Below are positions 365-30,941 of a DNA stretch of 32,000 nt, in pieces. The notes beneath the pieces are model-generated. The model made no database searches. It saw only the letters and a program-made list of their open reading frames with translations, and was not told the origin of the DNA. The position numbers and the translations under genes were made by a program. Each line of letters begins with the position of its first letter. Position 1 is the stretch's first letter. Origin of the DNA: Candidatus Saccharimonadota bacterium (GTDB taxonomy: Archaea > Micrarchaeota > Micrarchaeia > Micrarchaeales > Micrarchaeaceae); NCBI GenBank assembly GCA_021654395.1, contig AP024486.1, forward strand, positions 1 to 32,000, given 5' to 3'.

Positions 365-2312
365 ATATTCTCATCCTTTCAAGCAGCTTACTCTTCTTAG
401 CAGAATCTTTTAATACATAGGATAGTACCTCATCAATATACTCAACTGGAAATATCGTTATATCATTCTTTATATCATCGCTAAGCACTATATCATCTAA
501 GTTGGCCTTTGGAACTATTACCTTCTTTATTCCACTATAGTATGCTCCCTCTATCTTTGCTGATACTCCGCCTACAGGAAGTATCTCGCCTCTTACTGAT
601 AGAGAGCCAGTCATCGCATAAGACTGATCTATCGGTATAGACTCTAGAGCTGAGATTATACTAACTGCTATAGCGATACTTGCTGAATCCCCTTCAACTC
701 CTTCATAAGTTTGCATAAACTGTATATGTATATCATACTTTGATATATCTTTGCCGATATACTTCTTTATAACCGCGCTAACATTCTTTACAGCTTCAGT
801 AGCTATCTTTCCTAGTCTGCCTGTTGGTATAAATCTACCTTCTGATCTTGATCCTGATGGGGTAACCTCTGCCTCTAAAGGCATAACTAATCCATACATG
901 TATGATGACTGCCCAATAACAGCTAATCCATTTACTCTTCCTATCTTGTATCCTTCATTTACTATAAGGCTGTACTTCTTTCTAAGCTCTAGATATGATT
1001 CTGCTATCTGACCCTCTATAGATGTTGATATACCTCTTGCCTTTCTGACGTGCTCTGCTGTAACGAACTCTGCCCCTTCCTCTTTTGCTATATCTCCTGC
1101 TGCCCTTATTAAGCCTCCAAGCTCTCTTAATACTAGAGTTAACTTTCCTTTTACACCTGCTCTTCTCCTTGCTTCATTTATTATCTCTAATACGGCATCT
1201 TTCTTAAAGTGTGGTATATTCTTATCCTTATAAACTTCTTGTGCTACAAATCTTGCTAACAGAGCTCTATTCTCAGGATTATCATCCATAGTAGACTTTA
1301 TATATATCTCATAACCATAACCTCTTATTCTAGATCTTAATGCTGGATGCATTCTCTCTAGATCATGTATATTACCTGCTGCAACTAGTATAAAGTCGCA
1401 AGGTACTGGATCTGTCTTTACTAATGCTCCAGAGCTTAGCTCGCTTCTTCCTGTTATCTGGTATCTCTTTTCTTGCATAGCAGTTAATAGCTCTTGCTGA
1501 GATCTCATATCTAATGTCGATATCTCATCTATATACAAAACTCCTTTATTTGCCTTATGTATAGCGCCACTCTCTACTCTTAGATGAGGAGGTGTCTCTA
1601 GGCCTCCAGACTGGAATGGATCATGTCTAACATCTCCAAATAGAGCTCCTGCCTTTAATCCTGTTGCATCAACAAACGGTGCATGCTCCATTCCTGTATT
1701 ATCGACAATAAGCTTTGGAATATCATTATTTGTATTTAGAGGAATCCTTCTAGTTAATGTATAAGTAAGTAGTATAGCTGATCCGAATACCATTATTCCT
1801 AGCATTAATGCTGCTAATACGATAAGCTCATATGTTTTAAATATACCAGAGAGAGACAGTATAAATAGTAAGATTATTAGGATTGAGACAATCTGCACTA
1901 TAGCTGGTGCTTTCATATTCATACTCTGCATCGCTTTAAGCTTCTCTGCCTTTACTATCATTCTTCCCTGGCCTTCTAGCTTCTTCTCTTTTATTGCTTT
2001 CTCATCTATTCCATTTGGATAGGTCTTAACAACTTTTATTAATGGATTATTCTCATCATTCGGATTCCTATAGACTAATACATCCTCTAGATCTGTAGGT
2101 GGTAGCAGCTCTGCCATCGCTTGAGCCATCATAGTCTTTCCTGTTCCTGGATCTCCTATTAATAGGATATGCCTTCTCTGCTTTGCTGCTTTCTTAATAA
2201 TTCTTACAGCATAATCTTGACCTATAACTTGATCTATTAGTCTCTTTGGTATCTCTATCTCACTTGTATTATCAAAATCCATGTTTAATAGCTTATCGTC
2301 TATCTTCTTCAT
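309..2312 (-). CDS. lonB: Membrane-bound archaeal Lon protease (LonB type)
   Basis: Walker A GDPGTGKT. Two TM helices are inserted in the AAA+ module ([20 protein letters not shown] / [20 protein letters not shown]). Walker B-like LYIDEI. The C-terminal Lon protease domain has GDSAS (catalytic Ser) and VPKAN (Lys). Confidence 0.9.
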
Positions 2313-2427
2313 AAAGATATCCTCTAATTAGCTAATATAATTAGTCAGATTAGTATTAGCAAATAAAATTAAATATATATTATGTAAAAGATATAGAATA
2401 GATTCTTCTTATACTTGTTAATATTTG

Positions 2428-3906
2428 CTAAACTTTTATACCACTTTCATTTGCATATAGATTAATTATATAGCTTAGACCTTTGTAAATATATGAGCTC
2501 TCAGATACCAGATTACTATAATTCTTATATTGATAAGGTATACTAACACTTATATTTTTATTTATATAAGCTAAATATCTATATTCCTCCTCTTCGTTTA
2601 TCTCTACCTTAGATCCTTTTCCAAGTATTATATAGTATATGCAACCCGTATCTCTTGTAATCTTTATTTGACTTGTGCTATTTACTATATAAGATGCTAA
2701 TACTTTTAGAGAATTATTTAAGTTGTTTTCTAAAGCTAAGCTTTGGAGATACTTTGTATAGTTTGATATATTATAGAAAAATAATACTGTAGCATTACCT
2801 TCTATACTTATGTTAACTTTATAAGTCCCGTTATTATATGATCTGCATATTAAGCCAGGCTGATAGCTACGGGATATGTTATATTTATATCTATAGTTAA
2901 TTGTATTGTTTATGTATCTAGCTTCTCTTATAGTCTCTTTTATGGTGTAATAGCCATATACATTATATATTCTGTTGTTTAACCTTAATTCTGAAGAGTT
3001 TTTAAATAATCTACTAAAGATGGTCTGATTTACTGTTATATTGCTATTAGAATAGTTTGGTACTATATATATTCTTAGATTGTTTGTCTTCTTTGTTAGA
3101 TTAAATATAAGATAATTACTTCTATTATCAAGGTTTAAACTCTTGTTTGTATATATTTTAATTGGCCCATTATTAGCGTATACTAATATAGATGTATTAG
3201 CATATATGCTTGTTATGTTATGAAGCATAGTACTATTTATTACTATATAGTATAATCCTGGATTTAACTGAGTTGTATTTGAAGTTAAGTATGCTAGCTT
3301 ATTAATATCTATAATTGGTTTTATTGGATATATTGGCAATAATATTATTACTATCGCCGCTATAATCGAGATTGCATATATTCTGTTTATATTCTTATTA
3401 ATAAACCTTGATAATCTTATTAGTAATCTATTCTTTGAGATCTTACAATCAGAAATAACCTCTATTAAAGAGGCGATTGTCACGCTTATTAACAGATAAT
3501 ATCCCAATATTGCTATATTTTCAAGAATATTGGCTGGTAAGTTTAATATATAATATATCAAAGGCAAGATGAATAGCCAGAATATATACATATAATATTT
3601 ATTTAATTTGTCATAAGACAGCATTACAGAGATTGATATAAATGACATCAAAGTAAATATTATAATGCTTAACTTGTTAAAAAGACCATATACAACTGTA
3701 GTAGATAAAGTTATAAAGGATAATATCGCTGAAACTCTTTTAACTTTTTCTAATAGTAGCATAGGTATAACTAGAAGTAGGAATATTATTATAGAGTATA
3801 ACATAAACTGATCGTTATTGTATATTATAAAATATATTAAAAATATAGCTAGTAATACAAAGTATAAGGCTCTAGCTATGTATTTTATTATCTTAGAATT
3901 ATCCAT
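2428..3906 (-). CDS. Polytopic membrane protein with a large Asn-rich, sequon-dense extracytoplasmic C-terminal domain (function unknown)
   Basis: About 7 predicted TM helices lie in the first ~200 aa. The remaining ~290 aa carry about 23 N-x-S/T sequons (NTT, NST, NIT, NTS, NKS, NRS, NLT, NYS and others). The start overlaps the stop of the upstream gene by 8 nt (ATGGATAA). Confidence 0.6.
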   Translation of the reverse strand: MDNSKIIKYIARALYFVLLAIFLIYFIIYNNDQFMLYSIIIFLLLVIPMLLLEKVKRVSAILSFITLSTTVVYGLFNKLSIIIFTLMSFISISVMLSYDKLNKYYMYIFWLFILPLIYYILNLPANILENIAILGYYLLISVTIASLIEVISDCKISKNRLLIRLSRFINKNINRIYAISIIAAIVIILLPIYPIKPIIDINKLAYLTSNTTQLNPGLYYIVINSTMLHNITSIYANTSILVYANNGPIKIYTNKSLNLDNRSNYLIFNLTKKTNNLRIYIVPNYSNSNITVNQTIFSRLFKNSSELRLNNRIYNVYGYYTIKETIREARYINNTINYRYKYNISRSYQPGLICRSYNNGTYKVNISIEGNATVLFFYNISNYTKYLQSLALENNLNNSLKVLASYIVNSTSQIKITRDTGCIYYIILGKGSKVEINEEEEYRYLAYINKNISVSIPYQYKNYSNLVSESSYIYKGLSYIINLYANESGIKV

Positions 3907-5737
3907 TGCTTCTCACTCTTTTATATTTTATACTGCCTTTTCTTTCTTTTATATAGGAATATATTATAAGTGAAACTAAAGCTCCAAATACTAGATATTC
4001 TGCTATAAATGCAGCAGTTATATATCTCTGCCATTTATAATACAATATTATCTCATAACTCCCTGTTTTGTTTATATAGAATGCATTAGCAAATCCATTT
4101 ACCATTATATGATATCTCTGATTTACCTCTGTGCCATTTTGATAGTATGCAGTCCACGCAGGATCATAAGTTTCTCTGAAGACTAAGTAAAAAGGTGTTG
4201 TGGCATTCTTTATATAAACAATAACCTTTGAAGGATTTACTATCTGAAAGCTTACATTTGGCTTTGACATATTTTTGATATATGATACGTTAAATGTATC
4301 ATTTGTTGCATTATATATATTCATATAACCATAATATAGTATGGATCCATTAACTTTAGGTGCATAGACTGAATAGTTAAATATACTGAAATTATTATAT
4401 TCTATATAGTTAACTATCTGATGTAGTGATATATCCGAGGAATTTAATATCTTTATGTTTGAAGCATATACTAATGGTGTAACTAGATAGTTTTCATAAA
4501 TAGATGAATTAGAGAACTTAGCTTTGAATTGTATGTATTTAGAATTGTTTAGATTATTATAAATATAGCTCATATTGTATGGAATCAAAGGATGAAAAGG
4601 TATGTTAGAACTTTTAGCAGTATCGCCTTGAATTATTATGTATTTTATACCCAATATACCAAGCATTCTTGCTGGATCGAAGTTAATTGATTTCTCTTGC
4701 TCTATAGATTTAGCCACATCCTGATACTCTTCTATCGAAGGAGGAAAGAGATATTCGCTTCCTATAGTAAATCCGCCATTAAATACAGAAGCATTTATTA
4801 CAGATGGGTAGATATCTACGCCTGCATACCAAGTATCTATCTGCCATACAGGATTTGATGGTAAAGTCATAACATTATAGCTATAGCTAATATTTTTATT
4901 TATATAGTCTGCAATTTCTAAAACATGATTTGGCAATTTATCTAGAACAGGCAATGTTATGTTATAATATCCATATACTTTATTTTTAATTATAGGCTTC
5001 ATAACATCTTTGTAAAATGGTATAAAGTAAACTAAAAAGAAAAGTAGATAAATAATAAATATATATGCTAAATACATCTTTACTTTGCTTCTGTAAAGCA
5101 TATATACTATCTTAAAAACAGCTAATGAAAGTAGTATTGATGCTGCTGCATAAATAAAATTCTCATTATTGATTGGAAACCTGAAATCACTAAATAAGAT
5201 AAAATGATTATAAAGATATTTAAATATATTACCAAATGGCCCATATATAGTCTCAGAAAGTGCAAAAAATAGTATCAGCAATGTAATTAGCTGAAGTACG
5301 ATTATATCTTTATACTTGTTTCTAAATTTAATTGCAAGATTTACTAGTATAATGCTAAATATTATAAATATATAAATTAATGCATTTATATTATTAAATG
5401 GATTATAAAATAAGTTTGAAATAGTTTGCGTAATATAGGATCCATAATGTACTATATCATATGTAGAAGTTTCTGAAAAGCTATGCAATATCTCGTATGT
5501 TATATGTGAAGGATAGAAAGCATCAATAATAATGCCAATAAATTCAGCTATGTTTAACGTAATTGCACTAATTAGCATCAAAATTAATATCAAGATAAAC
5601 TTTATTCTACTTGCTTTAACTATAGTTAAATTAAAAATAAGTATTATTATACTAAAAAGTAAAGTCTGGGCTAAAAGGCCGCTATTATAGATTATATCTA
5701 ATCCTAAAAATAAAGTAGTTAAGGCGAAAAGCTTCAA
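3899..5737 (-). CDS. GT-C-fold-like integral membrane glycosyltransferase candidate (YfhO/PMT_2-like architecture); ORF as called from TTG
   Basis: Many TM helices are followed by an extracytoplasmic domain and a final TM anchor. The C-terminal block TPFYLVFRETYDPAWTAYYQNGTEV..MVNGFANAFYINKTGSYEIILYYKWQ..+TM resembles the conserved tail of YfhO-type GT-C proteins. The called start is TTG (caa at 5735-5737), and the frame stays open far upstream (see next feature). Confidence 0.6.
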   Translation of the reverse strand: MKLFALTTLFLGLDIIYNSGLLAQTLLFSIIILIFNLTIVKASRIKFILILILMLISAITLNIAEFIGIIIDAFYPSHITYEILHSFSETSTYDIVHYGSYITQTISNLFYNPFNNINALIYIFIIFSIILVNLAIKFRNKYKDIIVLQLITLLILFFALSETIYGPFGNIFKYLYNHFILFSDFRFPINNENFIYAAASILLSLAVFKIVYMLYRSKVKMYLAYIFIIYLLFFLVYFIPFYKDVMKPIIKNKVYGYYNITLPVLDKLPNHVLEIADYINKNISYSYNVMTLPSNPVWQIDTWYAGVDIYPSVINASVFNGGFTIGSEYLFPPSIEEYQDVAKSIEQEKSINFDPARMLGILGIKYIIIQGDTAKSSNIPFHPLIPYNMSYIYNNLNNSKYIQFKAKFSNSSIYENYLVTPLVYASNIKILNSSDISLHQIVNYIEYNNFSIFNYSVYAPKVNGSILYYGYMNIYNATNDTFNVSYIKNMSKPNVSFQIVNPSKVIVYIKNATTPFYLVFRETYDPAWTAYYQNGTEVNQRYHIMVNGFANAFYINKTGSYEIILYYKWQRYITAAFIAEYLVFGALVSLIIYSYIKERKGSIKYKRVRSNG

Positions 5738-6253
5738 ATTAACCTTGTGCTTGTTTTCATATTCAATATTAAATAGGTATAAAAATAATAAGAATAAAGG
5801 TATCCATAGAACAGGCGTATTAAATAGATTATAACCAACAAAGTATAGTTCAAAGAAAAATGCTGGTATAAAGGCAGTGATTATCGCTAAATCTTTATTA
5901 TAATCTTTAACTAGTTCATAAATAAGTAAAAAATAACCGCTGCTACCAATAAGTATATAGAATGTTGTTACAATAAGTGGAATATTATGCTTAAATAGAT
6001 TAATATATGTAAATGGGAATGCTATTAGATCAAAAAGTATACCTTGAAAATTACCAACCGGAAAGTTTGCATAACCAGAGTAATCTGGATAATACCATAT
6101 GTAATAGCTTAATAAAGTATATTTAAAAGCATAATAGTATAGTGCTGAATCCTCCCGAATATATAGCTAAATCTATAGTAAGCAAGAGCTACTATCAAAA
6201 CTGAAATATTCAATATTAGTAAAGCTATAGCAAGCTTTTATCCATAAAATCAT
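5738..6253 (-). pseudogene. Disrupted or recoded 5' portion of the GT-C-like gene
   Basis: Hand translation shows the frame of the 612-aa ORF stays open for 143 more codons (5738-6166). These codons are TM-like and include ..IREDSALYYYAFKY.., but contain no ATG, GTG or TTG. Two in-frame TAGs follow upstream (6167-6169 and 6173-6175). Further upstream, an ATG at 6251-6253 is in the same frame. A clean TM helix (KLAIALLILNISVLIVALAYYRFSYIFG) is encoded at 6237-6154 in a different frame. Confidence 0.6.
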
Positions 6254-6276
6254 ATTTAGAATTAAATAGAGTAAAC

Positions 6277-6290
6277 CTTTAAATAATTTT
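6277..6290 (-). promoter_or_regulatory. TATA-like box (minus-strand AAATTATTTAAAGG) about 29 nt upstream of the ATG at 6253
   Basis: Its spacing to the ATG at 6253 matches the spacing seen at other genes in this window. Confidence 0.3.
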
Positions 6291-6330
6291 ATTATTTAGT
6301 ATTTAAAAAAATAAGATAAGTAAATAAAGC

Positions 6331-6338
6331 TTTAAATA
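6331..6338 (+). promoter_or_regulatory. TATA-like box TTTAAATA preceded by purine-rich AAAGC (BRE-like), 27 nt upstream of the lig ATG
   Basis: Position relative to the ATG at 6358. This spacing is typical for archaeal leaderless transcripts. Confidence 0.35.
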
Positions 6339-6357
6339 TAATATTTAAACGATATCT

Positions 6358-8151
6358 ATGCTATTTGATGAGTTGGCAGATTATTATTCAAAGCTAGAAG
6401 AGATATCATCAAGAATAGCGATGGTTGATATACTGGCAGATATGCTATCTAAGCTGAATGAAGATGAGATAGATAAAGCAATTTACATAACTCAAGGTGT
6501 CCTATTACCTCCATATCAAGGAATAGAGATAGGTATAGCAGATAAGATGGCAGAAGATTCTATATCACTAGCGACTGGCTATAAAAGAGAGGATATTGAG
6601 AAGCTATATAAGCAATTAGGAGATCTAGGAAGTGTAGTAGAGCATATACTTAATGAAAGAAATACAGCGAAGATAGATGAAAGAAAGCTGAGCATACTAG
6701 ATGTTTATAATACTGTTTATGATATAGCAAAGAGGGCTGGAGAAGGTAGTAAAGCTCAAAAGACAAAGCTTTTAGCAGGCTTAATAACAAATCTCAGCCC
6801 GAAAGGAGCAAAGTATGCAGTAAGATATGTATTAGGGCAGTTAAGGTTAGGAGTGGGAGATGCGACTGTTATAGAGGCCTTATCTCTCATATCTACTAAA
6901 ACAAGAGGTAATAAGGATATAATAGAGAATGCATATAATCTATGTAGCGATCTGGGTTATATAGGTAAGCTGATTAAGCAAGGAGGTATAGATGCAATTA
7001 AGGATTTTAAGATCAGCTTATTTAGACCTATAAGACCAGCGTTAGCTGAGAGATTACCAACAGCGCAGGAGATACTACAAAGAATGAATGGCAGATGTGC
7101 AGTAGAGTATAAGTATGATGGCTTTAGATGCCAGATTCATAAGAAAGGCAATGAAGTAATGATATTCTCAAGAAGATTAGAGAATACAACAGCTATGCTA
7201 CCAGATATCGTAAATGCAGTAAAGAAAGAGATAAAGGCAGATGAGATAATATTTGAAGGAGAGGCGATAGGATATGATCAAGATACAGGAGAGTTCTTCC
7301 CATTTCAGGAGACTATACAGAGAAAGAGAAAGCACGATGTAGAAGAGAAGGCAGAGTCTATACCTCTTAAGCTTTTTGCATTTGATCTAATGTATCTCAA
7401 TGGAGAAAGCTATCTTAATAAGCCATATTCAGAAAGAAGAGCAAAGTTAGAAGAGTTAATAAAAGATAGTAAAGAATCTGTGATAAGACTAACACAAAGA
7501 ATAATAACAGATAATCCTGTTGAATTAGAGAACTACTTTGATAATGCAATAACAAATGGCTTAGAAGGCATAGTAGCAAAGGATCTTAATGCTCCTTATA
7601 TAGCTGGTGCAAGAAAGTTCTCATGGATAAAGCTAAAGAGAAGCTATAAGGGAGAGCTCTCAGACACACTAGATCTAGTTATTGTTGGATATGATGTAGG
7701 AACGGGTAAGAGAGCAGAGATAGGATTTGGAGCAGTACTGGCAGCGACATATAATAAAGAAAGAGATATCTTTGAAACAATATGTAAGATCGGATCTGGA
7801 TATACAGACAAAGAGAGAGAGATTATGAGAGATCTATTAAGAAAGATAGTTGTAGATCATAAGCCTGCTAGAGTAGACTCTATAATTAAGCCAGACTATT
7901 GGGTTGAGCCGAGATATGTTATAACAGTAAAGGCAGATGAGATTACAAGATCTCCAACCCATACATGCGGCAGAACAACGCTACCAGATGGAACAACTGT
8001 CGGCTATGCTTTAAGATTTCCAAGGCTTGTATCACAGAATGATGATCCTATAAGAGAGGATAAAGCACCAGAGGATGCGACAACGACGCAAGAGGTAATA
8101 GAGATGTATAACATGCAAAGAAAGAGCTCTGTAGGGGAAGATGAAAGCTGA
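6358..8151 (+). CDS. lig: ATP-dependent DNA ligase
   Basis: The 597-aa product carries adenylation motif I, AVEYKYDGFRCQIH (KxDG). It also has motifs EGEAI, LFAFDLMYLNGE, GLEGIVAK and WIKLK, and an OB-fold tail. Length and architecture match archaeal Lig. Confidence 0.93.
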   Translation: MLFDELADYYSKLEEISSRIAMVDILADMLSKLNEDEIDKAIYITQGVLLPPYQGIEIGIADKMAEDSISLATGYKREDIEKLYKQLGDLGSVVEHILNERNTAKIDERKLSILDVYNTVYDIAKRAGEGSKAQKTKLLAGLITNLSPKGAKYAVRYVLGQLRLGVGDATVIEALSLISTKTRGNKDIIENAYNLCSDLGYIGKLIKQGGIDAIKDFKISLFRPIRPALAERLPTAQEILQRMNGRCAVEYKYDGFRCQIHKKGNEVMIFSRRLENTTAMLPDIVNAVKKEIKADEIIFEGEAIGYDQDTGEFFPFQETIQRKRKHDVEEKAESIPLKLFAFDLMYLNGESYLNKPYSERRAKLEELIKDSKESVIRLTQRIITDNPVELENYFDNAITNGLEGIVAKDLNAPYIAGARKFSWIKLKRSYKGELSDTLDLVIVGYDVGTGKRAEIGFGAVLAATYNKERDIFETICKIGSGYTDKEREIMRDLLRKIVVDHKPARVDSIIKPDYWVEPRYVITVKADEITRSPTHTCGRTTLPDGTTVGYALRFPRLVSQNDDPIREDKAPEDATTTQEVIEMYNMQRKSSVGEDES

Positions 8152-8156
8152 GATAA

Positions 8157-8528
8157 TCAGCTATCCTTTAATGCTGCGATGTTCTCGTTGTTATAGCTTA
8201 TATCCTTGGAGCTACTTATCTTCTTTATCTTCCTAGAGAAATCCTCTAGAGTGTTTAGCATGCTCACAACTTCTGGATTTATCTTATAACCTAATGTATA
8301 GCATGTTGGTGTTCTTATGTGTGTTGGCTGTATTACATTAAGCTCTAGTGTTAGCTTTCTTAGACTGATTATTAATGTCTTTCTTGTAAACTTATCTGCT
8401 AACTCTCTATATATCTCTTTTGTTGTTCTTGGTGATTTTTCTCTTAGTAATGCGAGTATTGCGTAGTTCGGCTTAGTTATTATCTCCCTTAAGTACTCCA
8501 ATCCATCTGAATCCTTTGCCTTTGACAT
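8157..8528 (-). CDS. Small winged-helix (wHTH) DNA-binding protein, putative transcriptional regulator
   Basis: The segment PNYAILALLREKSPRTTKEIYRELADKFTRKTLIISLRKL looks like an ArsR/MarR-like HTH followed by a wing. No specific family could be assigned by eye. Confidence 0.45.
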   Translation of the reverse strand: MSKAKDSDGLEYLREIITKPNYAILALLREKSPRTTKEIYRELADKFTRKTLIISLRKLTLELNVIQPTHIRTPTCYTLGYKINPEVVSMLNTLEDFSRKIKKISSSKDISYNNENIAALKDS

Positions 8529-8567
8529 TCTATATCACCCAAATATTATAATTCTTAATCTAATAGA

Positions 8568-8574
8568 TTTATAT
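8568..8574 (+). promoter_or_regulatory. TATA-like box TTTATAT, 31 nt upstream of the ATG at 8599
   Basis: Spacing is consistent with the other candidate promoters in the window. Confidence 0.3.
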
Positions 8575-8598
8575 GCTTTTCCTTACTTAAGTAAATTT

Positions 8599-9294
8599 AT
8601 GTTTACTAAAGTAAAACAAATTGAAACATTGATCAATGATAGATATGTAATTGGATATGTTTTACATAATGGTTATTTACATTTATTTAATGAATTCTAT
8701 GTAAAAAGATATAAAATTATTGGTAAATTAAGTAACTTAGATTATAAGATCTACACAAAGGAGATATCAATAGGAGATGTCCTAATAAGATTTAATAGAT
8801 TCTATAGCGAGATAAAAGATAATATAGCTGAGTATATAAGAGAGATCTCTTATATAATGCCAGATATCTATTTTAGATCAGTATCTATGCTTCTAAGCTC
8901 CTATAAATATATAAATAAGGCTTTTAAGATACGTATACTAAATCCTTTCATACTATTTGATTCTATAAGAGCTAACAATCTAGATATAGAGCTTACCGGC
9001 ATTAAAGATAAAGGTAAACTTTATGACTATTCTATAGATCCATTTGCTCTTAGCAATAGGGCTGTAGCAAATATAAGCACCATAGATAATATTGGATCTA
9101 CGCATAGACTATGGCCAAGGATAGTGATCTACGATAATGAGCTACTAGAGATAGATCCATTAAGAGAGCTAGAGAATAGAATCTCTTATAATGATATTAC
9201 TATAAGCAGATCTATATTCAAAGGATATTTAGCATTAGCAAAAGGAAGAAGTATAAAAAGATTAGAAGAGATATACAGCAATAAATCTAGTTAG
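8599..9294 (+). CDS. Hypothetical protein (231 aa), no recognisable motif
   Basis: Long ORF with composition typical of local cytosolic proteins and its own TATA-like box. Its 3' end overlaps the convergent AAA+ gene by 33 nt. Confidence 0.5.
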   Translation: MFTKVKQIETLINDRYVIGYVLHNGYLHLFNEFYVKRYKIIGKLSNLDYKIYTKEISIGDVLIRFNRFYSEIKDNIAEYIREISYIMPDIYFRSVSMLLSSYKYINKAFKIRILNPFILFDSIRANNLDIELTGIKDKGKLYDYSIDPFALSNRAVANISTIDNIGSTHRLWPRIVIYDNELLEIDPLRELENRISYNDITISRSIFKGYLALAKGRSIKRLEEIYSNKSS

Positions 9295-10950: not shown

Positions 10951-11018
10951 GCTCTTAACCTTTCTAATGATAATTAAGATAGAAAAGGAAATATAAATAT
11001 CTTTCTCATTACAGCAAC

Positions 11019-11107
11019 TGGACTCCGCGGGATTTTCTATTAGTAGCTATTCGAACCCGCAACCTCCCGCACGCCAAGCGGGTGCGCTACCATTGCGCCA
11101 GGAGCCC
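11019..11107 (-). tRNA. tRNA-Ala (anticodon GGC) containing a 17-nt insert (putative non-canonical intron) in the T-loop
   Basis: Hand fold: acceptor GGGCUCC/GGAGUCC with G3:U70 (the Ala identity pair); D arm GCGC-AAUGGUA-GCGC; anticodon arm CCCGC-UUGGCGU-GCGGG; T-stem GCGGG...CCCGC; T-loop UUCGAAU followed by the extra AGCUACUAAUAGAAAAU; discriminator A. CCA is not encoded. Confidence 0.85.
11032..11048 (-). other. 17-nt intervening sequence in the T-loop of tRNA-Ala (position 59/60 or 60/61; ambiguous because of a repeated U)
   Basis: Removing AGCUACUAAUAGAAAAU restores a canonical 7-nt T-loop and a perfect 5-bp T-stem. Confidence 0.7.
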
Positions 11108-11118
11108 AGTATTAAGAG

Positions 11119-11346
11119 CTAAGCAGGTGATAAGAATACTATATTTCCACCCCTTACTAGTATAGTCCCTAGCTTCGCTTTTACCTCGCCATCCTCTATC
11201 TCTTCTGCGTCCTCTAGAACTATGTTCATATGCACATCAAATGCTGTCATTCTTCCTCTTATATTTACATCTCCTTTTATTCTCACTAGTACATTCTTAC
11301 CTATCGACTTATTCAATAGATCGAAAGGCCTTGGTCTCTCTTCCAT
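11119..11346 (-). CDS. Archaeal Sm-like (LSm/SmAP) RNA-binding protein
   Basis: The 75-aa product has an Sm1 motif (VLVRIKGDVNIRGRMTAFDVHMNIVLEDAEE) and an Sm2 motif (ILVRGGNIVFLSP). Confidence 0.9.
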   Translation of the reverse strand: MEERPRPFDLLNKSIGKNVLVRIKGDVNIRGRMTAFDVHMNIVLEDAEEIEDGEVKAKLGTILVRGGNIVFLSPA

Positions 11347-11489
11347 CTGATCACTCTATCTGAATTTTAAGTATAGATATTATTATCTTTAAATACATAA
11401 ATTTAAATATATTTGCTTATCTGCTTTATATTTAAGATATTAACTTTATGATAAACTTATTAATAGTTTAAGATAAAAGCTTATAAATA

Positions 11490-15612: not shown

Positions 15613-16359
15613 ATGTTTAAGCCCTTAAGATATACTATAAGCTATTATATAAGTAATATAAAGATTGTAACGTTACTGTCTCTCCCGATACTTATAGCTG
15701 TTATACTATCCTTACTGCTATATAGATACGCTTTACCACAGTCATACGCATTATTTATAAGCATAGATCTAATAGAGAGCAAAAGTATTGCAAATATAAT
15801 AGTTGCTGTTCTAGATCTAATAATACCCAATATCTTTATTAGCTTTAGTATAGCTATGCTTAATCTTCTACTAAAGAGTAGAAGAACGTTTACAAAGATA
15901 ACAAATGACATTATACTATCTATAGAGAGATATACCTCTAGAATCTTTGTAATAGTTATTGCTTATATGATCTTATCGTCATTTATATTCTATCTGGCTT
16001 CTATATCTTCTATTCACATATTCATATTAACTGCTGCACTAATATCTTTTATTATATATGCTCTTATATTCTATGCGCCTAACGCGATAGTGCTAGATGA
16101 TCTATCTATAATAAACTCTATAAAGAAGAGCATCTATTTACAGAGGAAGAGACCTGCCTACTTTATATGCTGGATAGTGCTTTCAGCTATAGTAGTTCTT
16201 CTATTGATACTTATATCATTATATCTTAACCATCTTAATCCATCTTATACAACTTTATATAATTACTTAATATTTACAATATACGGACTATTCTTCTTGC
16301 CATTTATAATACTTCTTCAAGCAAATATGTATCTTGATAGATATAAGCTATTAAAATGA
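15613..16359 (+). CDS. Hypothetical polytopic membrane protein (about 6 TM)
   Basis: Hydrophobic helices run throughout and no motif was recognised. Its stop overlaps the start of the next gene (ATGA). Confidence 0.55.
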   Translation: MFKPLRYTISYYISNIKIVTLLSLPILIAVILSLLLYRYALPQSYALFISIDLIESKSIANIIVAVLDLIIPNIFISFSIAMLNLLLKSRRTFTKITNDIILSIERYTSRIFVIVIAYMILSSFIFYLASISSIHIFILTAALISFIIYALIFYAPNAIVLDDLSIINSIKKSIYLQRKRPAYFICWIVLSAIVVLLLILISLYLNHLNPSYTTLYNYLIFTIYGLFFLPFIILLQANMYLDRYKLLK

Positions 16360-16673: not shown

Positions 16674-17483
16674 ATACTGCTGAGCATAACCAGCATATCT
16701 CCCCCATCTAGAATATGCAAACTCCTTTATCTTTGAGATCTTTAACCTCTCATTATTAAAGTAAAGCCGCTCTATTGCTCTCTTGATCCATGTATCTATA
16801 GGAAATGCTTCTGTCTTTCCATAACCGAATAATGCTATGCAATCAGAGACCTTATCTCCTATGCCGTAAATATCCATTAATGCATCTTTTATATATTCAT
16901 AGCTCTTATGCTCTAGAGAGTACATATCTAGATTATAAAGCATATATCTAACTGCATTATATAGATATGGTGCTCTGTAGCCCAAGCCAATCTCTCTTAA
17001 TCTCTCAATACTTATCTTCTCAAGTGTGTATAGATCAGGAAATAGCCTATAACTCTTGCTATTAAGCTTTACAACCTTTCCATAGCTATATAGCTTATCT
17101 ATTATACCTCTGATTCTATTTATATTGTTAAACTGTGATATAATGAATACTATAGTTGTTATTACAGGATCTGACTTTGTAAGTCTTAAGCCTTTATATG
17201 ACATTATGGCTTTATGCATTATACTATCTGTATCTATACTTTCATATATCTTATTTAGATTATCTTTGCTTCTTAGTAGCTGCTTCACATAGCTAGCGTC
17301 ATGCTTTGGATATGCTTTTACATATATGCTGTGTACTGGATTATCTATACTCTCAGCATTTATATATAGCAATAGCTTATCCTCAGAGTAAACCAGATTA
17401 TTATTAATAATCTTTGATATGAAGCTTAATGTCTGGCCACTTTCATAAGTTTCCTTTATAGCTATATCTATATCTAATCTCAT
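16635..17483 (-). CDS. ogg: 8-oxoguanine DNA glycosylase / AP lyase (HhH-GPD superfamily, Ogg type)
   Basis: HhH-GPD motif IYGIGDKVSDCIALFGYGKTEAFPIDTWIKR, with the catalytic Lys in GDKVSDC and the Asp in PIDTW. The ATG overlaps the stop of the upstream giant gene (AGATGAGA). Confidence 0.8.
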   Translation of the reverse strand: MRLDIDIAIKETYESGQTLSFISKIINNNLVYSEDKLLLYINAESIDNPVHSIYVKAYPKHDASYVKQLLRSKDNLNKIYESIDTDSIMHKAIMSYKGLRLTKSDPVITTIVFIISQFNNINRIRGIIDKLYSYGKVVKLNSKSYRLFPDLYTLEKISIERLREIGLGYRAPYLYNAVRYMLYNLDMYSLEHKSYEYIKDALMDIYGIGDKVSDCIALFGYGKTEAFPIDTWIKRAIERLYFNNERLKISKIKEFAYSRWGRYAGYAQQYLYHLSRMTKLSI

Positions 17484-20400
17484 CTACTCTTATTTAGATA
17501 GTAATTTAATATTAATGCTACTGCTAGTAAAACTAATAAGATAATAACAGATACTTGACTATAGCTTATTGATAATCCACCATAGTAGGCCTCTATGGAT
17601 GTCTCAGATGGCTGTAGAGTATAGTTATACTCTAAAACTACTAGAAGATTACCCGATGTAACTATGTTGATATGCTGATTACTAGATGTAGGGAATGTTA
17701 TTATAGAAGGTGAGTAGCTGCCTCCACCATTGCTTACTATCTGATTTATTGTCTGATTTGCATATGGATTAGCTGCTATAACAATAGGCATCGGCTCTGG
17801 CGGATTATTACCATAGTACTTTACAATAACAGAAGTTTCACCATTTCCGCATATAGTTATTGGACCTGCTGAAAAGTTACCTAATGTATTTGAGCTACTG
17901 CTCGTTGTAACTATATCTGCTAGGCCTAGCTGTGGCGTTAAGATACCAGTTCCATTCTGGAACTGTGGATCACAGTAAAGCATCTCTCCATTCTGTGCCT
18001 CTGCTATTGGTAAGTTGTAATATCCAAATACGTTACAGTTATAAACCTTCTTCTGTAATAGATAGCCAGCTGGCTTAGAGCATTCATTAGATATACTGTT
18101 AAATGCTGGCTGATATGTAATGTATTTTGCCTCTTCAATTCCGGTCTGATTATAAGATACGCTAGCAGATTTAAGATCCCCGCTATATGTTATTGTCTCT
18201 AAGGGATTTGCAACAGGACATCTTCCAGCGAGGCTGCCAAATGCACATTCTGTAACATATTGAGCATAATCTTGTGGATCAGAGTAAGGTGTTACTATGC
18301 TATTATAATAGTTTATATCTTGTCCTATATATACATATACTGGAGCATTACCTACGCCGCTGCACTGCGTTAATCCACTACCGAAGCATTGATATAGCTG
18401 ACCACTAACATATAAGTCTGTTTGATTCGTATTTGCTGAATCTATTATAGAATTTACTGAGACTGCAAGATAGGTATAGTTTGCGAAGTCAACTGACATT
18501 GGAGCATATAACGTATTATTAAAGTAGTCAAAGAAGTTATAATCTAACCTATTAAATCCATATAGCGGCTTTAAGGTGTAAGCTCCTCCAGGATTATTAA
18601 ACTGCTCTGTCTGCTGATACAGATAAGTTACAATCTTATAGACTGTTGGAAGTGCAAAGGATGCAATTCCTGGAGAGTGTATAGCATTTACTGTAAGAGT
18701 TACTAGACTTGGATTACTATATATATCTGCAGGAGGTATGCTATAGTATCCAGCATCAGTCTGCAATGTAGTTATCGGAGGATGTTGATTAACAACCTCA
18801 TGTGCGTACTGGGGAATCTCAGTAGAGCCAACTTGCTGTGCGTAAGTAACTTGAGTGTATGTTGCATTACTATATGCAAATAATGGGAATGGTATGATTA
18901 GCTTTGTATAAGGATTCTCATAAGATGAGTTCTCAGTAAGATTTACGAAATACTCTCCCAGTATTCTTCCAGTATATATGTTAAATATCATAGCTGGTGG
19001 CATTATTGTCTGATTATCGTAAAGACTTGCATTATAGAACAGGTTAGTAAGATCGTTCTTGATATATACTGTATCTGCTTGTACCTGATCTACAACCTTA
19101 TTAGATAAGAATGGGAATGCAGCATATGAAACCACATTTTCATATGATGAACCTTGTGGATTTAGAGTTGGTTTACATTGACCTGATTCTAGCTCACCAA
19201 CGCTGCATGTAGGCTTTGATGGCTTACAGCATTTAGCGTTACTTTCAGAAGTAGAGTCAGGCACTATTGAACTCTGTACTACAGTTATTCTATACTTTGT
19301 GTTATAGCTATAGTTATAAAATACATATATCTGGCCATCTATCTGTGAACTTAGATTCTCATAAGAGTTTAGAGAAGATACTGTAGATACCTGCTGCGAG
19401 GATGATGTATAGCATGTTGGTGTTAGCCCGCTACTTCCACTGCTAGATGTACTGCTGCATTCTACTGCAGCTGTAGAGCCAGATGATGATGGGCATATAA
19501 TGTTCGCTGATCCGCTACTTGATATTTGACATAATGGAACTGCACATGTCGGTATATAGTTACCAGGTGTTGGATTACTTGGATTCTCTATACAAGAAGG
19601 CACAGGTATAACAGTTCCGGAGCTAGATGAATAAGTAGCACTACATGTAGGAGCAGAAATTTGGCCTTGGCTATTTACGCATTCTATCTGACCATAAGGG
19701 GTACATTCTAGCTGATCTCCTGATGGGCATTGAGGTAATAATTGTTTATAATTGCTGCAGTATGCAAATGCACTTGAGACTACCTGACCATTCGATTCAC
19801 ATACTACCTCTGCACTACCAGACTGTGAACCGCTACTTCCTCCTGCTGGTGCACACGAAGAGCTACCAGCTGGGCATATGCTAGCTAAACCTGCACCTAG
19901 TGAAAGATATCTTAATGGAGTACTTTGTGATAGTGCATACGATGATGCGGAAGTTTCAACTGTTATAGGACCGTATAGCTGAGAAAGGATATAGTATGGG
20001 GCTTTTGTGTTTGTATCTGTCTCTCCTTCTCCAGAGCTACAGCTTTGTTCATCTACGGATGTATTTAAGTAACATATATAATTGCTATTTACTGGTTTAC
20101 TGTATTGGACTATTGTATAGTTATAGGGCAATGGATCAAACTGCACTAACTCAGTATATGGCGTCTTTGCTACATCAACATGAGCAAGTAGCAAAGCGCT
20201 TCCATTTGACTCTACAGCAAAGCCATAGGGCAGACCAGTTATCACTTGTGCTACTGTATGAAGAGACTTTGGTAGAGTTCCGAATATATTTATATTTACA
20301 CCTGTAATCTGTAATCCAGCAGAATTTGGTACAGCAGTCTGCGGGAATGGATTAGCAGATATTGCTGGACCAATTGGTAAGAATCCATTGGTATTTGTAT

Positions 20401-23374: not shown

Positions 23375-23430
23375 TATATATCTAGTTATCTTAAGAAGTT
23401 CAAATATATATAATTTACGTATAGATACAG

Positions 23431-23504
23431 CGGATCCGGTGGGATTTGAACCCACGACCTACGGGTTAAAAGCCCGCCGCTCTGCCAAACTGAGCTACGG
23501 ATCC
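23431..23504 (-). tRNA. tRNA-Lys (anticodon UUU)
   Basis: Hand fold: GGAUCCG-UA-GCUC-AGUUUGGCA-GAGC-G-GCGGG-CUUUUAA-CCCGU-AGGUC-GUGGG-UUCAAAU-CCCAC-CGGAUCC-G. All stems pair, with one G:U at 27:43. Confidence 0.93.
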
Positions 23505-28431: not shown

Positions 28432-29442
28432 ATGCCCGTAAGAGATATAGATCTAAGAGAGCTTCTCAAGGTATTTACTGCTTTCTTAATAGTCCAGTTC
28501 TTAGGCTTTCTTATGATGCTCCTTGTTTATAATAATGCTTCTTACTCAGTATTAAGCAGCGTATCTTATGGACAGAGCAATATACTCTACTCCATATCAA
28601 TATTTGTATCAGAGCTAATTATAGCCGTTATAATACTTCTCTTGCTTATTAGATTCTTACATGGCGCTTGGTTATACTACTTCATGGAAGGAGCGATACT
28701 ACTCCTTACTCTTACTGTATTCTTTGGTGTTATTATATCTAGCTTTTTAGGAGAGGCTTATCTATTCGCAGCAGGCTATCTTCTACCTTATGTATATATT
28801 ATAGCATTAGCTATAAGTATAGGATTTATAATAGCAAAGCATAAGATAAACTCTATCATACTTAGAAACTTCATAGTTATAATGACAAGCGTTGGACTAG
28901 GCTTACTCATAGGTATATACTTTGGCTTTTTCTTCTCTCTGATATTCTTAGTTATAATGGCTGTTTATGATTATGTCTCAGTATTTATAACTAAGCATAT
29001 GGTTGCATTAGCAGAGGGCTCATTTAGATATAACCTTGCTATGATGCTGTACTTTAGTGAGACTAAAGCACTAGATAAGAGCAGTGTAGATAAGAGAACT
29101 CTAAATGAGATAGATAAGGATCTAAAGAAGAATAAGGAGTTTTATAAGTCATTCAAAAGCATATCTAACAAGTTAAATCTGAGTAGTAGCTATGTGCCTC
29201 TAGTATCTGCAGTTGGCTTAGGCAACGGTGATCTTGCATTACCTTTATCAGTAGTTGTTGCTTCAGTAAAGTATAGCAATAACTTTATACTGCCGTTGAC
29301 TCTAATAGCTGGAGGTGCATTAGGGCTAGCTTTGACATTCTATCTTCTATATAGATATAGAAGACCTCTGCCGGCTATACCGCCTTTAAGCATAGGAATA
29401 CTATTTGCATTCTCATTATATATACTATTGAATATTAAATAA
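28432..29442 (+). CDS. Presenilin / signal-peptide-peptidase-like intramembrane aspartyl protease (A22 family, PSH-like)
   Basis: A polytopic membrane protein with AVYDYVSVFITKHM (YD motif), GLGNGDLALP (GxGD motif) and PLPAIPPLS (PAL-like motif). A hydrophilic loop lies between the two catalytic helices. It starts at the nucleotide after the mcm stop. Confidence 0.7.
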   Translation: MPVRDIDLRELLKVFTAFLIVQFLGFLMMLLVYNNASYSVLSSVSYGQSNILYSISIFVSELIIAVIILLLLIRFLHGAWLYYFMEGAILLLTLTVFFGVIISSFLGEAYLFAAGYLLPYVYIIALAISIGFIIAKHKINSIILRNFIVIMTSVGLGLLIGIYFGFFFSLIFLVIMAVYDYVSVFITKHMVALAEGSFRYNLAMMLYFSETKALDKSSVDKRTLNEIDKDLKKNKEFYKSFKSISNKLNLSSSYVPLVSAVGLGNGDLALPLSVVVASVKYSNNFILPLTLIAGGALGLALTFYLLYRYRRPLPAIPPLSIGILFAFSLYILLNIK

Positions 29443-30632: not shown

Positions 30633-30941
30633 ATGGAAGAGATAAGCTTTGAAGAGGCTAAGCCTCTTTTAGAGAAAGGAAAGAGATTAGTGTGGTTAGG
30701 AGTAGAGGATAAGAGCTATATAGCAGAGCTATTAGGAATAGATGAAAGTAAGATACTACAGCTCTCACCGCAAGAGATCTTCTATATGCATCCAGAGAAA
30801 GCAAAGGAGCTAGAGGATCATCCTTTTATCTGCTACCATGGAAATACATCCAGAGCAATAGGAAAGATACTTGAGAGCAGAGGAGTAAATATCAAGTCTA
30901 TAAAAGGAGGCATAACGGGTATCATAGGAAGAGAGTTATAA
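30633..30941 (+). CDS. Single-domain rhodanese-like protein
   Basis: The size (102 aa) and layout fit: LVWLGVEDKSY.., the putative active-site loop FICYHGNTSRA (C-x-x-G-x-x-S) and a C-terminal IKGGITG. Confidence 0.5.
   Translation: MEEISFEEAKPLLEKGKRLVWLGVEDKSYIAELLGIDESKILQLSPQEIFYMHPEKAKELEDHPFICYHGNTSRAIGKILESRGVNIKSIKGGITGIIGREL

What the first reader, a model, noticed from the sequence alone, without database searches (positions are those of the whole stretch)
5738..6253. GT-C-like membrane gene with a broken or recoded 5' end
The 612-aa ORF is called from a TTG at 5737, but its frame stays open for 143 more codons up to 6166. Stop triplets are common in this AT-rich DNA, so this is very unlikely for non-coding sequence. 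The extension encodes TM-like sequence plus an acidic loop (IREDSALYYYAFKY), which is the kind of first-loop D/E motif that GT-C glycosyltransferases carry. It contains no ATG, GTG or TTG. Just upstream lie two in-frame TAGs separated by one codon (6173-6175 and 6167-6169). Further up, an ATG at 6251-6253 is in the same frame and sits about 29 nt downstream of a TATA-like box. Between them, the biologically sensible reading is a clean TM1 helix, KLAIALLILNISVLIVALAYYRFSYIFG, encoded at 6237-6154 in a different frame. Adding one G to the GGG run (plus-strand CCC at 6154-6156) would give ...YIFG-EDSALYYY... in one frame. A second 1-nt change near 6235 would link that reading to the ATG. The gene is therefore one of four things: a fresh pseudogene; an assembly or homopolymer error; a TTG-initiated gene (6213) needing one frameshift; or a genuinely recoded gene.
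Basis: seen in the sequence. Interest (0 to 1): 0.7.

Follow-up and report, generated by a model that had tools for sequence, protein, structure and literature searches.

The report
Frameshift-broken membrane glycosyltransferase gene
A conserved membrane sugar-transferase gene of the cultured DPANN archaeon ARM-1 has lost its start and first membrane helix to one or two single-base frame breaks. It is most likely a very recently inactivated gene that the database annotates as a shortened 612-residue protein.

Summary
The window is the start of the Candidatus Micrarchaeota archaeon ARM-1 chromosome, and the 612-aa ORF is ARM1_0003.

- **Open frame:** it stays open for 143 start-less codons (chance about 2e-5), the outlier among the window's ORFs.
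- **Family length:** about 60 relatives are nearly all 740-790 aa. Every full-length gene inspected at DNA level is a single ORF starting M-(K/R)-TM1-Y.RF.Y.FGGD.GL.
- **The break:** in ARM-1 this motif is split. AYYRFSYIFG lies in one frame (6237-6154) and (E)DSAL in the main frame, so one base is missing at about 6149-6157.
- **Second lesion:** neither nearby ATG (6253, 6245) is in the helix frame. This points to a second 1-nt indel in the A-run at 6236-6239.
- **Not an assembly error:** an independent assembly of the Illumina reads alone is identical here.
- **Not recoding:** there is no slippery heptamer, no stable downstream RNA structure and no frameshift in any relative inspected. TAG is a normal stop.
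- **No product seen:** neither this protein nor its conserved downstream partner appears in a proteome that detected 82% of ARM-1 proteins.
- **Fold:** the predicted structure is GT-C (best match AftD), so that label holds at fold level, though no Pfam family matches.

Verdict: a fresh frameshift pseudogene or off-allele with a truncated annotation. Interest is modest.

The parts
3899..5737 (-). Annotated 612-aa ORF (ARM1_0003, TTG start). It is really the C-terminal 78% of the gene: TM5 onward, the extracytoplasmic beta-rich domain and the C-terminal anchor helix.
   Evidence: P0001, 100% identity. The model's secondary structure places residue 144 of the 755-aa reading at helix H144-160.
5738..6166 (-). 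Start-less 143-codon extension in the same frame. It encodes the first external loop, with the conserved D (GAT 6151-6149), W and the Y-S-G motif, followed by TM2-TM4.
   Evidence: It aligns with homologues from profile position 35. Conserved columns D35, W53, Y58 and G60 are shown.
6154..6237 (-). TM1 segment KLAIALLILNISVLIVALAYYRFSYIFG in a different frame. It carries the first half of the family motif Y.RF.Y.FG.
   Evidence: A profile built from homologues only hits this fragment co-linearly at profile positions starting at 10, with 16.4 bits. Adding it raises the N-terminal score from 15 to 30-41 bits.
6149..6157 (-). Frame break 1: one base is missing in CGGGAGGAT (for example GGGG to GGG at 6156-6154). 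It splits the conserved F-G-(G/E/K)-D motif.
   Evidence: The junction falls between G33 and D35 of the family motif.
6236..6239 (-). Frame break 2: the A4 run between the candidate ATGs and TM1. Either one A was gained (start ATG 6253) or one A was lost (start ATG 6245).
   Evidence: Read from the sequence. Profile scores are 35.4 and 41.0 bits respectively.
6243..6253 (-). Two candidate ancestral start codons: ATG 6253-6251 (frame of the main ORF) and ATG 6245-6243 (third frame). Neither is in the TM1 frame.
6167..6175 (-). TAG-ATT-TAG, which terminates the reading from ATG 6253 after 26 codons.
   Evidence: TAG ends 7 of 22 genes in the window.
6278..6283 (-). TTTAAA TATA-like box, -30 to -25 from ATG 6253. 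The spacing suits a leaderless transcript.
   Evidence: The ligase gene shows a similar TATA-to-ATG spacing. This is inference only; no transcript data are available.
2428..3906 (-). Downstream partner gene (492 aa, 23 N-x-S/T sequons). It overlaps the GT-C gene's end by 8 nt.
   Evidence: Homologous genes sit immediately downstream of the GT-C homologue in L002, L004, L006 and L008. Its 57.156 kDa product is absent from the proteome list.

Best explanation
This is a conserved gene of about 785 codons for a GT-C-fold membrane glycosyltransferase, recently inactivated by small frameshift mutations in its first 100 nt.

**Original protein.** It read M-(few residues, K)-TM1 (LAIALLILNISVLIVALAYY)-RFSYIFG-(E)D-SAL.... 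The aspartate just after TM1 sits in the first external loop, where GT-C enzymes keep an essential acidic residue.

**What broke.** A single base was lost in the short G-run at about 6154-6157, which separates TM1 from the rest of the gene. A second single-base indel in the A-run at 6236-6239 separates TM1 from either ATG.

**Consequence (inferred).** Translation from the leaderless ATG 6253 now ends after 26 codons at TAG. The 755 codons downstream have no usable start. No full-length enzyme is made, and the translationally coupled downstream partner gene is probably poorly expressed too. The annotated 612-aa protein lacks TM1-TM4 and the loop aspartate, so it could not fold or act as a GT-C enzyme.

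**Timing.** The body of the gene is still undecayed, so the inactivation is recent. It may have arisen during enrichment and co-culture.

**Shown:** the frame breaks, the homology across them, the fold, read-level support from Illumina data, and absence from the proteome list.
**Inferred:** the direction and order of the indels, the promoter and start, lack of expression, and timing.
For: 1. The window is Ca. Micrarchaeota archaeon ARM-1. ARM1_0003 is the 612-aa ORF.
2. Family size: 60 representatives at E<=1e-30, nearly all 740-790 aa and matching from profile position 1-20.
3. The seven complete genes among eight GTDB loci are single intact ORFs of 765-788 aa with TM1 in frame. P0011, which appeared N-terminally short, has TM1 upstream in frame.
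4. The family N-terminal motif is Y-x-R-F-x-Y-x-F-G-G-D-x-G-L. ARM-1 has YYRFSYIFG in frame 6237-6154 and (E)DSAL in the main frame.
5. A profile built without ARM-1 hits the off-frame fragment co-linearly (16.4 bits). Repaired N-termini score 30-41 bits, against 15 for the extension alone and 11 for in-frame TAG read-through.
6. DRR248898 is the Illumina MiSeq run (PMC8784108). Its Logan assembly is identical to window 899..8737.
7. In the published ARM-1 proteome (698 ARM-1 proteins identified; the genome has 849 CDSs), the first 16 table rows match window genes in genome order by exact molecular weight. The values 71.101 kDa (612 aa) and 57.156 kDa (partner) are absent.
8. The AF2 model has pLDDT 79.8 and pTM 0.81. 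Foldseek hits: AftD 6w98 E 6e-10, then STT3, AftA, DPY19 and ArnT.
9. In AftD, K39 and D41 just after TM1 are essential (bioRxiv 10.1101/2019.12.22.885152).
10. The lesion is strain-specific. No intact ARM-1-like allele was found among 5.8 billion protein clusters, and no close relative was found in JGI metagenomes.
Against: - The 755-codon body shows no decay. ARM-1 keeps 82 of 90 columns that are at least 80% conserved, exactly the family median. This would also fit a gene that is still used.
- Two indels within about 85 nt and none in the remaining 2,260 nt is unlikely for neutral, uniform decay: about 0.002 if both were independent.
- Absence from the proteome is weak evidence. The protein is polytopic and sequon-rich, the stored table is truncated, and the search database held only the 612-aa form.
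- No raw reads, transcript map or second isolate could be examined.
Confidence: 0.77

Rival explanations
1. On/off heterogeneity. The intact allele persists in part of the ARM-1 population, through slippage at the short A- and G-runs or an ordinary polymorphism. The assembly simply shows the majority off state of a surface-glycosylation operon.
For: - Both lesions lie in homopolymer runs, and both sit at the extreme 5' end.
- The body of the gene is undecayed.
- The gene pair is conserved across Micrarchaeota, so it is likely useful in nature.
Against: - Runs of 4 A and 3 G are far shorter than known phase-variation tracts. This rests on established knowledge, not a test made here.
- Switching on would need two sites to change together.
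- The Logan contig of 33 kb runs through the site without a break.
- No intact ARM-1 allele exists in the protein collection.
Confidence: 0.09
2. Programmed recoding. The full-length enzyme is made by ribosomal frameshifting. This would be either a shift at the A-run plus a -1 shift at GGG, or TTG-6213 initiation plus a single -1 shift.
For: - The 755-codon frame is intact and as conserved as in its relatives.
- The lesions cluster at the start of the gene.
- A -1 frameshift-dependent gene is known in a crenarchaeon (fucA1 of Saccharolobus solfataricus; from my own knowledge, not checked here).
Against: - No relative inspected at DNA level carries the frameshift, including seven complete GTDB genes, and some 40 full-length representatives are single proteins.
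- There is no X-XXY-YYZ heptamer at either site (sequence).
- RNA 6256-6080 folds no better than shuffles (z = -0.97).
- Two low-efficiency events in series would yield almost nothing.
- The product was not detected in the proteome.
Confidence: 0.05
3. The annotated 612-aa protein, or another N-terminally truncated product, is the real functional product, and the upstream 143 codons are a dead remnant.
For: - It is the only reading with a canonical start codon.
- The C-terminal extracytoplasmic domain and anchor helix are complete.
Against: - There is no promoter or ribosome-binding context. TTG 5737 lies inside a helix of the GT-C core.
- The product would lack TM1-TM4 and the loop aspartate.
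- Short representatives exist (for example 558 and 654 aa), but they were not inspected. The one checked, P0011, was a mis-called start.
- The 71.101 kDa product was not detected.
Confidence: 0.04
4. Sequencing or assembly artefact: the real genome has an uninterrupted frame.
For: Both lesions are in homopolymer runs, and PacBio RS II long reads were part of the hybrid assembly.
Against: - Unicycler builds from the Illumina graph.
- A separate k-mer assembly (Logan) of the MiSeq run alone is base-for-base identical over 7.8 kb, including both sites.
- Illumina indel errors at A4 or G3 runs are negligible (established knowledge).
- Two independent errors within 85 nt would be needed.
Confidence: 0.03
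5. In-frame stop-codon read-through or TAG reassignment, reading from ATG 6253 straight through the two TAGs.
For: ATG 6253 is in the same frame as the main ORF, and both intervening stops are TAG.
Against: - The in-frame peptide MILWIKACYSFTNIEYFSFDSSSCLL has no similarity to the family N-terminus. It scores 11.1 bits, against 15.2 for the extension alone.
- It is not a membrane helix.
- TAG terminates 7 of 22 genes in the window.
Confidence: 0.01

Closest known systems
AftD, mycobacterial arabinofuranosyltransferase D (GT-C fold; PDB 6W98; Pfam PF11847 GT-C_AftD)
   Same: - It is the best structural match of the predicted model (E 6e-10, TM 0.51 over the query).
- The architecture is shared: an N-terminal polytopic GT-C domain, a large extracytoplasmic beta-rich domain and a C-terminal membrane helix.
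- An essential Asp sits just after TM1 (D41 in AftD; D35 here).
- The last 100 residues or so resemble the C-terminus of a PF11847 protein, P0003 (hhalign probability 97.6%).
   Different: - No Pfam or NCBIfam model matches any of the 44 family members scanned.
- There is no sequence hit to any PDB chain.
- It is about 785 aa rather than about 1,400 aa, with no ACP partner or CBM array shown.
- It is archaeal (Micrarchaeota and Marsarchaeota, plus a weaker hit in Saccharolobus).
- Donor and acceptor are unknown.
AglB/STT3 oligosaccharyltransferases (GT-C)
   Same: GT-C fold hits to STT3 chains 6ftg_5, 8agc_A and 8age_A. Both have an extracytoplasmic C-terminal domain.
   Different: The WWD[YWFN]G motif is absent from all 44 members, and the structural match is weaker than to AftD.
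Frameshift pseudogenes mis-annotated as shorter ORFs in reduced symbiont genomes
   Same: - Single-base indels in short homopolymers.
- The gene caller rescues the longest start-to-stop piece.
- The orthologues examined are intact.
   Different: The body shows no further decay, and both lesions are confined to the first 100 nt.
fucA1 alpha-fucosidase of Saccharolobus solfataricus (programmed -1 frameshift in an archaeon; recalled from knowledge, not checked here)
   Same: An archaeal gene split into two frames that together encode one conserved protein.
   Different: fucA1 has a canonical slippery heptamer and needs only one shift. Here there is no heptamer, no stimulatory structure, probably two shifts, and no detected product.

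Membership tests
GT-C fold glycosyltransferases | Polytopic membrane domain with the GT-C helix arrangement, followed by an extracytoplasmic domain | tested here: met
   AF2 model with pLDDT 79.8 and pTM 0.81. The top Foldseek PDB hits are all GT-C enzymes: AftD 6e-10, STT3 6.5e-4, AftA 3.4e-3, DPY19 2e-2 and ArnT. This rests on a predicted structure, not a solved one.
GT-C fold glycosyltransferases | Conserved acidic residue at the start of the first external loop, just after TM1 | tested here: met
   D35 of the repaired protein aligns with D in 31 of 43 relatives, plus N in 4. AftD K39 and D41 are essential. A catalytic role here is inferred.
GT-C fold glycosyltransferases | Two juxtamembrane helices in the loop between TM1 and TM2 | tested here: inconclusive
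   The model shows short helices at residues 14-19 and 40-54 before the first long helix at 59-86. However, pLDDT is 55-75 there, and TM1 was not in the modelled sequence.
GT-C fold glycosyltransferases | Uses a polyprenyl-phosphate-linked sugar donor | not testable with these tools
   Biochemistry is needed.
Pfam PF11847 GT-C_AftD | Score above the family's gathering threshold | tested here: not met
   No hit at E<=1 for the ARM-1 protein or close relatives, and none at E<=0.01 for 44 members. Only the distant P0003 carries PF11847, and it matches this family's C-terminal 100 aa only.
AglB/STT3 oligosaccharyltransferase | WWDYG-type motif in the C-terminal domain | tested here: not met
   0 of 44 members contain WWD[YWFN]G.
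Frameshift pseudogene | Orthologues are single intact ORFs, while this copy needs frame changes to give the homologous protein | tested here: met
Frameshift pseudogene | The lesion is present in the reads and is not an assembly error | tested here: met
   The Illumina-only Logan assembly of DRR248898 is identical over 899..8737. Read pile-ups themselves were not available.
Frameshift pseudogene | No protein product | tested here: inconclusive
   71.101 kDa is absent from the genome-ordered proteome table, while its neighbours Lon and ligase are present. However, the stored table is truncated, the protein is a membrane glycoprotein, and the search database lacked the N-terminal part.
Frameshift pseudogene | Relaxed constraint or further decay downstream | tested here: not met
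   82 of 90 conserved columns are kept, equal to the family median, and 755 codons are stop-free. If this is a pseudogene, it is very young.
Programmed ribosomal frameshift | Frameshift conserved in orthologues | tested here: not met
   All relatives inspected at DNA level are intact, and the full-length representatives are single proteins.
Programmed ribosomal frameshift | Slippery sequence (X-XXY-YYZ for -1, or a shift-prone codon followed by a slow or stop codon for +1) | tested here: not met
   The sites read A-TTC-GGG-AGG and ATA-AAA-GCT. Neither has a heptamer, and no rare or stop codon follows.
Programmed ribosomal frameshift | Downstream stimulatory RNA structure | tested here: not met
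   MFE -33.2 kcal/mol against a shuffle mean of -29.9; z = -0.97; 30 of 200 shuffles fold as well.

The most novel reading that the evidence does not exclude
The breaks are not decay but a switch. The 5' end of a conserved surface-glycosylation operon in a DPANN ectosymbiont may be turned off and on by indels at two short homopolymers, or be expressed at low level by two successive ribosomal frameshifts. This would tune the symbiont's surface glycans, with possible effects on host range or attachment. The undecayed 755-codon body and the clustering of both lesions in the first 100 nt leave room for this reading.
Probability: 0.07. Interest if true: 0.7.

Novelty: new member of a known kind. 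Interest (0 to 1): 0.27.

Why it matters
- **Annotation.** ARM1_0003 in GenBank is a truncated call for a disrupted gene. It should be flagged as a frameshifted pseudogene of about 785 codons. The genome paper mentions no pseudogenes or frameshifts.
- **Biology.** ARM-1 is one of the few cultured DPANN archaea. The cultured line appears to have just lost a GT-C glycosyltransferase and probably its partner. This pair is conserved across Micrarchaeota, and in relatives it sits beside GT4 or GT9 glycosyltransferase genes. Loss of a surface-glycan step in co-culture could affect interpretation of the cell-surface and host-interaction work on this strain.
- **The family.** About 60 representatives at E<=1e-30 are missing from Pfam and NCBIfam, yet have an AftD-like GT-C fold. 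The family deserves a model.

None of this is surprising in kind.

Tried and rejected
- **Pfam and NCBIfam.** Scans of the repaired protein, and Pfam scans of 44 relatives, found no family.
- **PDB by sequence.** A profile search found nothing.
- **Closer relatives.** A JGI metagenome scan for close relatives of ARM-1, which could have dated the lesions, found none.
- **TAG read-through.** Rejected: there is no homology in that frame, and TAG is a common terminator.
- **TTG 6213 as the native start with only one lesion.** Not excluded, but it removes 8 residues of TM1 and scores 10 bits below the best repair.
- **A family member that naturally lacks TM1.** P0011 looked like one, but its start was mis-called and TM1 is upstream in frame.
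- **Stimulatory RNA structure for frameshifting.** None found.
- **Structure prediction of the repaired 784-aa fusion.** The 755-aa in-frame reading was modelled instead.
- **Bacterial promoter scanner.** Not used, because it does not cover archaeal promoters. The TATA spacing was read by eye.

Full report
**1. Where we are.** The 612-aa ORF is identical to "hypothetical protein ARM1_0003" of Candidatus Micrarchaeota archaeon ARM-1, on an 814,439-bp contig. The window is therefore the start of the complete genome published by Sakai et al. 2022 (PMC8784108). ARM-1 is a thermoacidophilic DPANN archaeon co-cultured with Metallosphaera sp. AS-7. Window G+C is 34.3%; the paper gives 34.1% for the genome.

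Everything below is on the minus strand.
- The ORF 3899..5737 starts at TTG.
- Its frame stays open for 143 more codons, up to 6166, with no ATG, GTG or TTG.
- It is closed by TAG-ATT-TAG at 6175-6167.
- ATG 6253 is in the same frame.
- The helix KLAIALLILNISVLIVALAYYRFSYIFG is encoded at 6237-6154 in another frame.
- With a stop-triplet frequency of 0.074, 143 open codons have a chance probability of about 1.7e-5.
- Among the window's 25 ORFs of at least 100 aa, the next longest start-less extensions are 55, 44 and 32 codons.

**3. The extension and the off-frame helix are both homologous coding sequence.**
- The first search found one relative, P0002 (787 aa, 32% identity), which aligns from residue 41 of the 784-aa conceptual fusion.
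- A GTDB scan gave eight loci in Micrarchaeota and Marsarchaeota MAGs. Seven hold single intact ORFs of 765-788 aa, and the eighth runs off its contig.
- An exhaustive HMMER search gave 60 representatives at E<=1e-30. Nearly all are 740-790 aa and match from profile position 1-20.
- The family N-terminus is M, a few polar or basic residues, TM1, then the motif Y-x-R-F-x-Y-x-F-G-G-D-x-G-L.
- ARM-1 carries A-Y-Y-R-F-S-Y-I-F-G in the 6237-6154 frame and (E)-D-S-A-L in the main frame. The frame break therefore falls inside the most conserved N-terminal motif.
- A profile built only from relatives hits the off-frame fragment co-linearly, at profile positions starting at 10, with 16.4 bits. It is the best of all off-frame fragments. 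The main frame takes over at profile position 35.
- P0011, which seemed to lack TM1, simply has a mis-called start.

**4. How many lesions, and where.**
- *Lesion 1* is a missing base within CGGGAGGAT (6157-6149), for example G4 to G3.
- *The TM1 frame* is closed by TAA at 6240-6238, and its only canonical start is TTG 6213, inside the helix.
- *Two ATGs* sit just upstream. ATG 6245 joins if one A is added, giving MDKK-LAIALL.
- *Scores against a 43-member N-terminal profile*:

| Reading | Bits |
|---|---|
| ATG 6245 with one A added | 41.0 |
| ATG 6253 with one A removed | 35.4 |
| TTG 6213 | 30.5 |
| Extension alone | 15.2 |
| Unedited sequence with TAG read-through | 11.1 |

- *Sequence versus promoter.* MDKK + TM1 also resembles relatives such as P0010 (MDKKEKIELIAIYL). 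However, the TTTAAA box at 6283-6278 is spaced for a leaderless ATG 6253.
- I therefore leave the choice of start open. Two lesions are most likely; one lesion with a TTG start cannot be excluded.

**5. Not an assembly artefact.**
- The genome was a Unicycler hybrid of PacBio RS II and MiSeq reads. DRR248898 is the MiSeq run.
- The Logan assembly of DRR248898 alone contains a 33-kb contig that is base-for-base identical to window 899..8737, covering both sites.
- Read pile-ups were not available, so minor variants cannot be ruled out.

**6. Not recoding, on any criterion I could test.**
- No relative inspected carries the frameshift.
- Neither site has a slippery heptamer, and no rare or stop codon follows.
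- The mRNA 6256-6080 folds no better than shuffles (z = -0.97).
- TAG is an ordinary terminator, ending 7 of 22 genes in the window.
- The in-frame peptide between ATG 6253 and the TAGs has no similarity to the family.

**7. Expression evidence.** Johnson et al. 2024 (PMC11329633) identified 698 ARM-1 proteins; the genome has 849 CDSs.
- The first 16 rows of their Supplementary Data 1 match genes of this window in genome order by exact molecular weight. Examples are Lon at 73.79 kDa, ligase at 67.432 kDa and a 75-aa protein at 8.3466 kDa.
- Between Lon and ligase there is no row for 71.101 kDa (the 612-aa product) or 57.156 kDa (the downstream gene). Neither number occurs anywhere in the stored part of the file.
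- Caveats: these are membrane proteins rich in sequons (19 and 23 N-x-S/T), and the stored file is truncated.

**8. What the protein is.**
- No Pfam, NCBIfam or PDB sequence match exists.
- The AlphaFold model of the 755-aa in-frame reading, built with a 44-sequence alignment, has pLDDT 79.8 and pTM 0.81.
- Its best PDB matches are all GT-C enzymes: AftD (E 6e-10, TM 0.51), STT3, AftA, DPY19 and ArnT.
- The C-terminal 100 residues or so resemble the C-terminus of a PF11847 (GT-C_AftD) protein.
- In AftD the residues K39 and D41, just after TM1, are essential. The family's FGGD aspartate (D35 in the repaired ARM-1 protein) occupies the equivalent place in the sequence.
Membership of any curated family is not.
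- The annotated 612-aa product begins inside helix H144-160 of the model, so it lacks TM1-TM4 and the first external loop.

**9. Context.**
- The next gene downstream (2428..3906, 492 aa) overlaps by 8 nt. It is homologous to the gene immediately downstream of the GT-C homologue in L002, L004, L006 and L008, so this is a conserved pair.
- Relatives sit beside GT4 or GT9 glycosyltransferase genes. In ARM-1 the pair lies between LonB and DNA ligase.

**10. Age of the lesion.** ARM-1 keeps 82 of 90 columns that are at least 80% conserved, which is the family median, and the 755 codons are stop-free. The inactivation is therefore recent, or the gene is still under selection in part of the population. 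No close relative exists in the collections searched to date it.

**11. Verdict.** Each confidence below is stated on its own; the figures were not normalised to add up to 1.

| Explanation | Confidence |
|---|---|
| Young frameshift pseudogene or fixed off-allele, mis-annotated as a 612-aa protein | 0.77 |
| Population heterogeneity (on/off) | 0.09 |
| Programmed frameshifting | 0.05 |
| Functional truncated product | 0.04 |
| Sequencing or assembly artefact | 0.03 |
| TAG read-through | 0.01 |

It is a useful annotation correction and a small lead for DPANN surface biology, but ordinary in kind.

Noticed in passing
window 2428..3906 (-): A 492-aa ORF with 23 N-x-S/T sequons overlaps the glycosyltransferase gene by 8 nt. 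It has homologues immediately downstream of the GT-C homologue in four other Micrarchaeota/Marsarchaeota loci. It has no Pfam family and is not in the proteome list. This is a conserved, uncharacterised partner protein.
   Followed up: partly
window 11119..11346 (-): A 75-aa ORF (8.3466 kDa) lies in the apparent intergenic gap 10951-11489. Its exact mass matches the fifth row of the genome-ordered proteome table, which has 97% sequence coverage and a high iBAQ. It is a small, abundant protein below the 100-aa ORF cut-off used here.
   Followed up: partly
window 17480..23455 (-) and 23430..23504 (-): The mechanically called GTG start of the giant ORF overlaps tRNA-Lys(UUU). The proteome mass of 210.68 kDa fits a start at ATG 23374, giving 1,964 aa. 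This very large protein was not characterised here.
   Followed up: partly
L012 about 1414..1500 (contig ena:ERZ27237183:k141_509798): The family member P0011 (754 aa) has a mis-called start. The true N-terminus, MSLFRNSRFVIYVLIFLLAFATISSLLY..., with TM1, lies upstream in the same frame.
   Followed up: yes
window 8599..9294 (+), 15613..16359 (+), 28432..29442 (+), 30633..30941 (+): The expected masses of these four ORFs are absent from the first 16 genome-ordered rows of the proteome table. ORF 8599..9294 also has 44 start-less open codons upstream, but these overlap the opposite-strand gene 8157..8528 and look incidental.
   Followed up: no
P0004 (Saccharolobus shibatae, 774 aa) and locus L006 (Marsarchaeota MAG): The family is not restricted to DPANN. 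A Marsarchaeota MAG carries a full-length member, and a Saccharolobus shibatae hypothetical protein is a weaker hit (E 3e-21, 28% of the query covered). Possible exchange between symbiont and host lineages was not examined.
   Followed up: no
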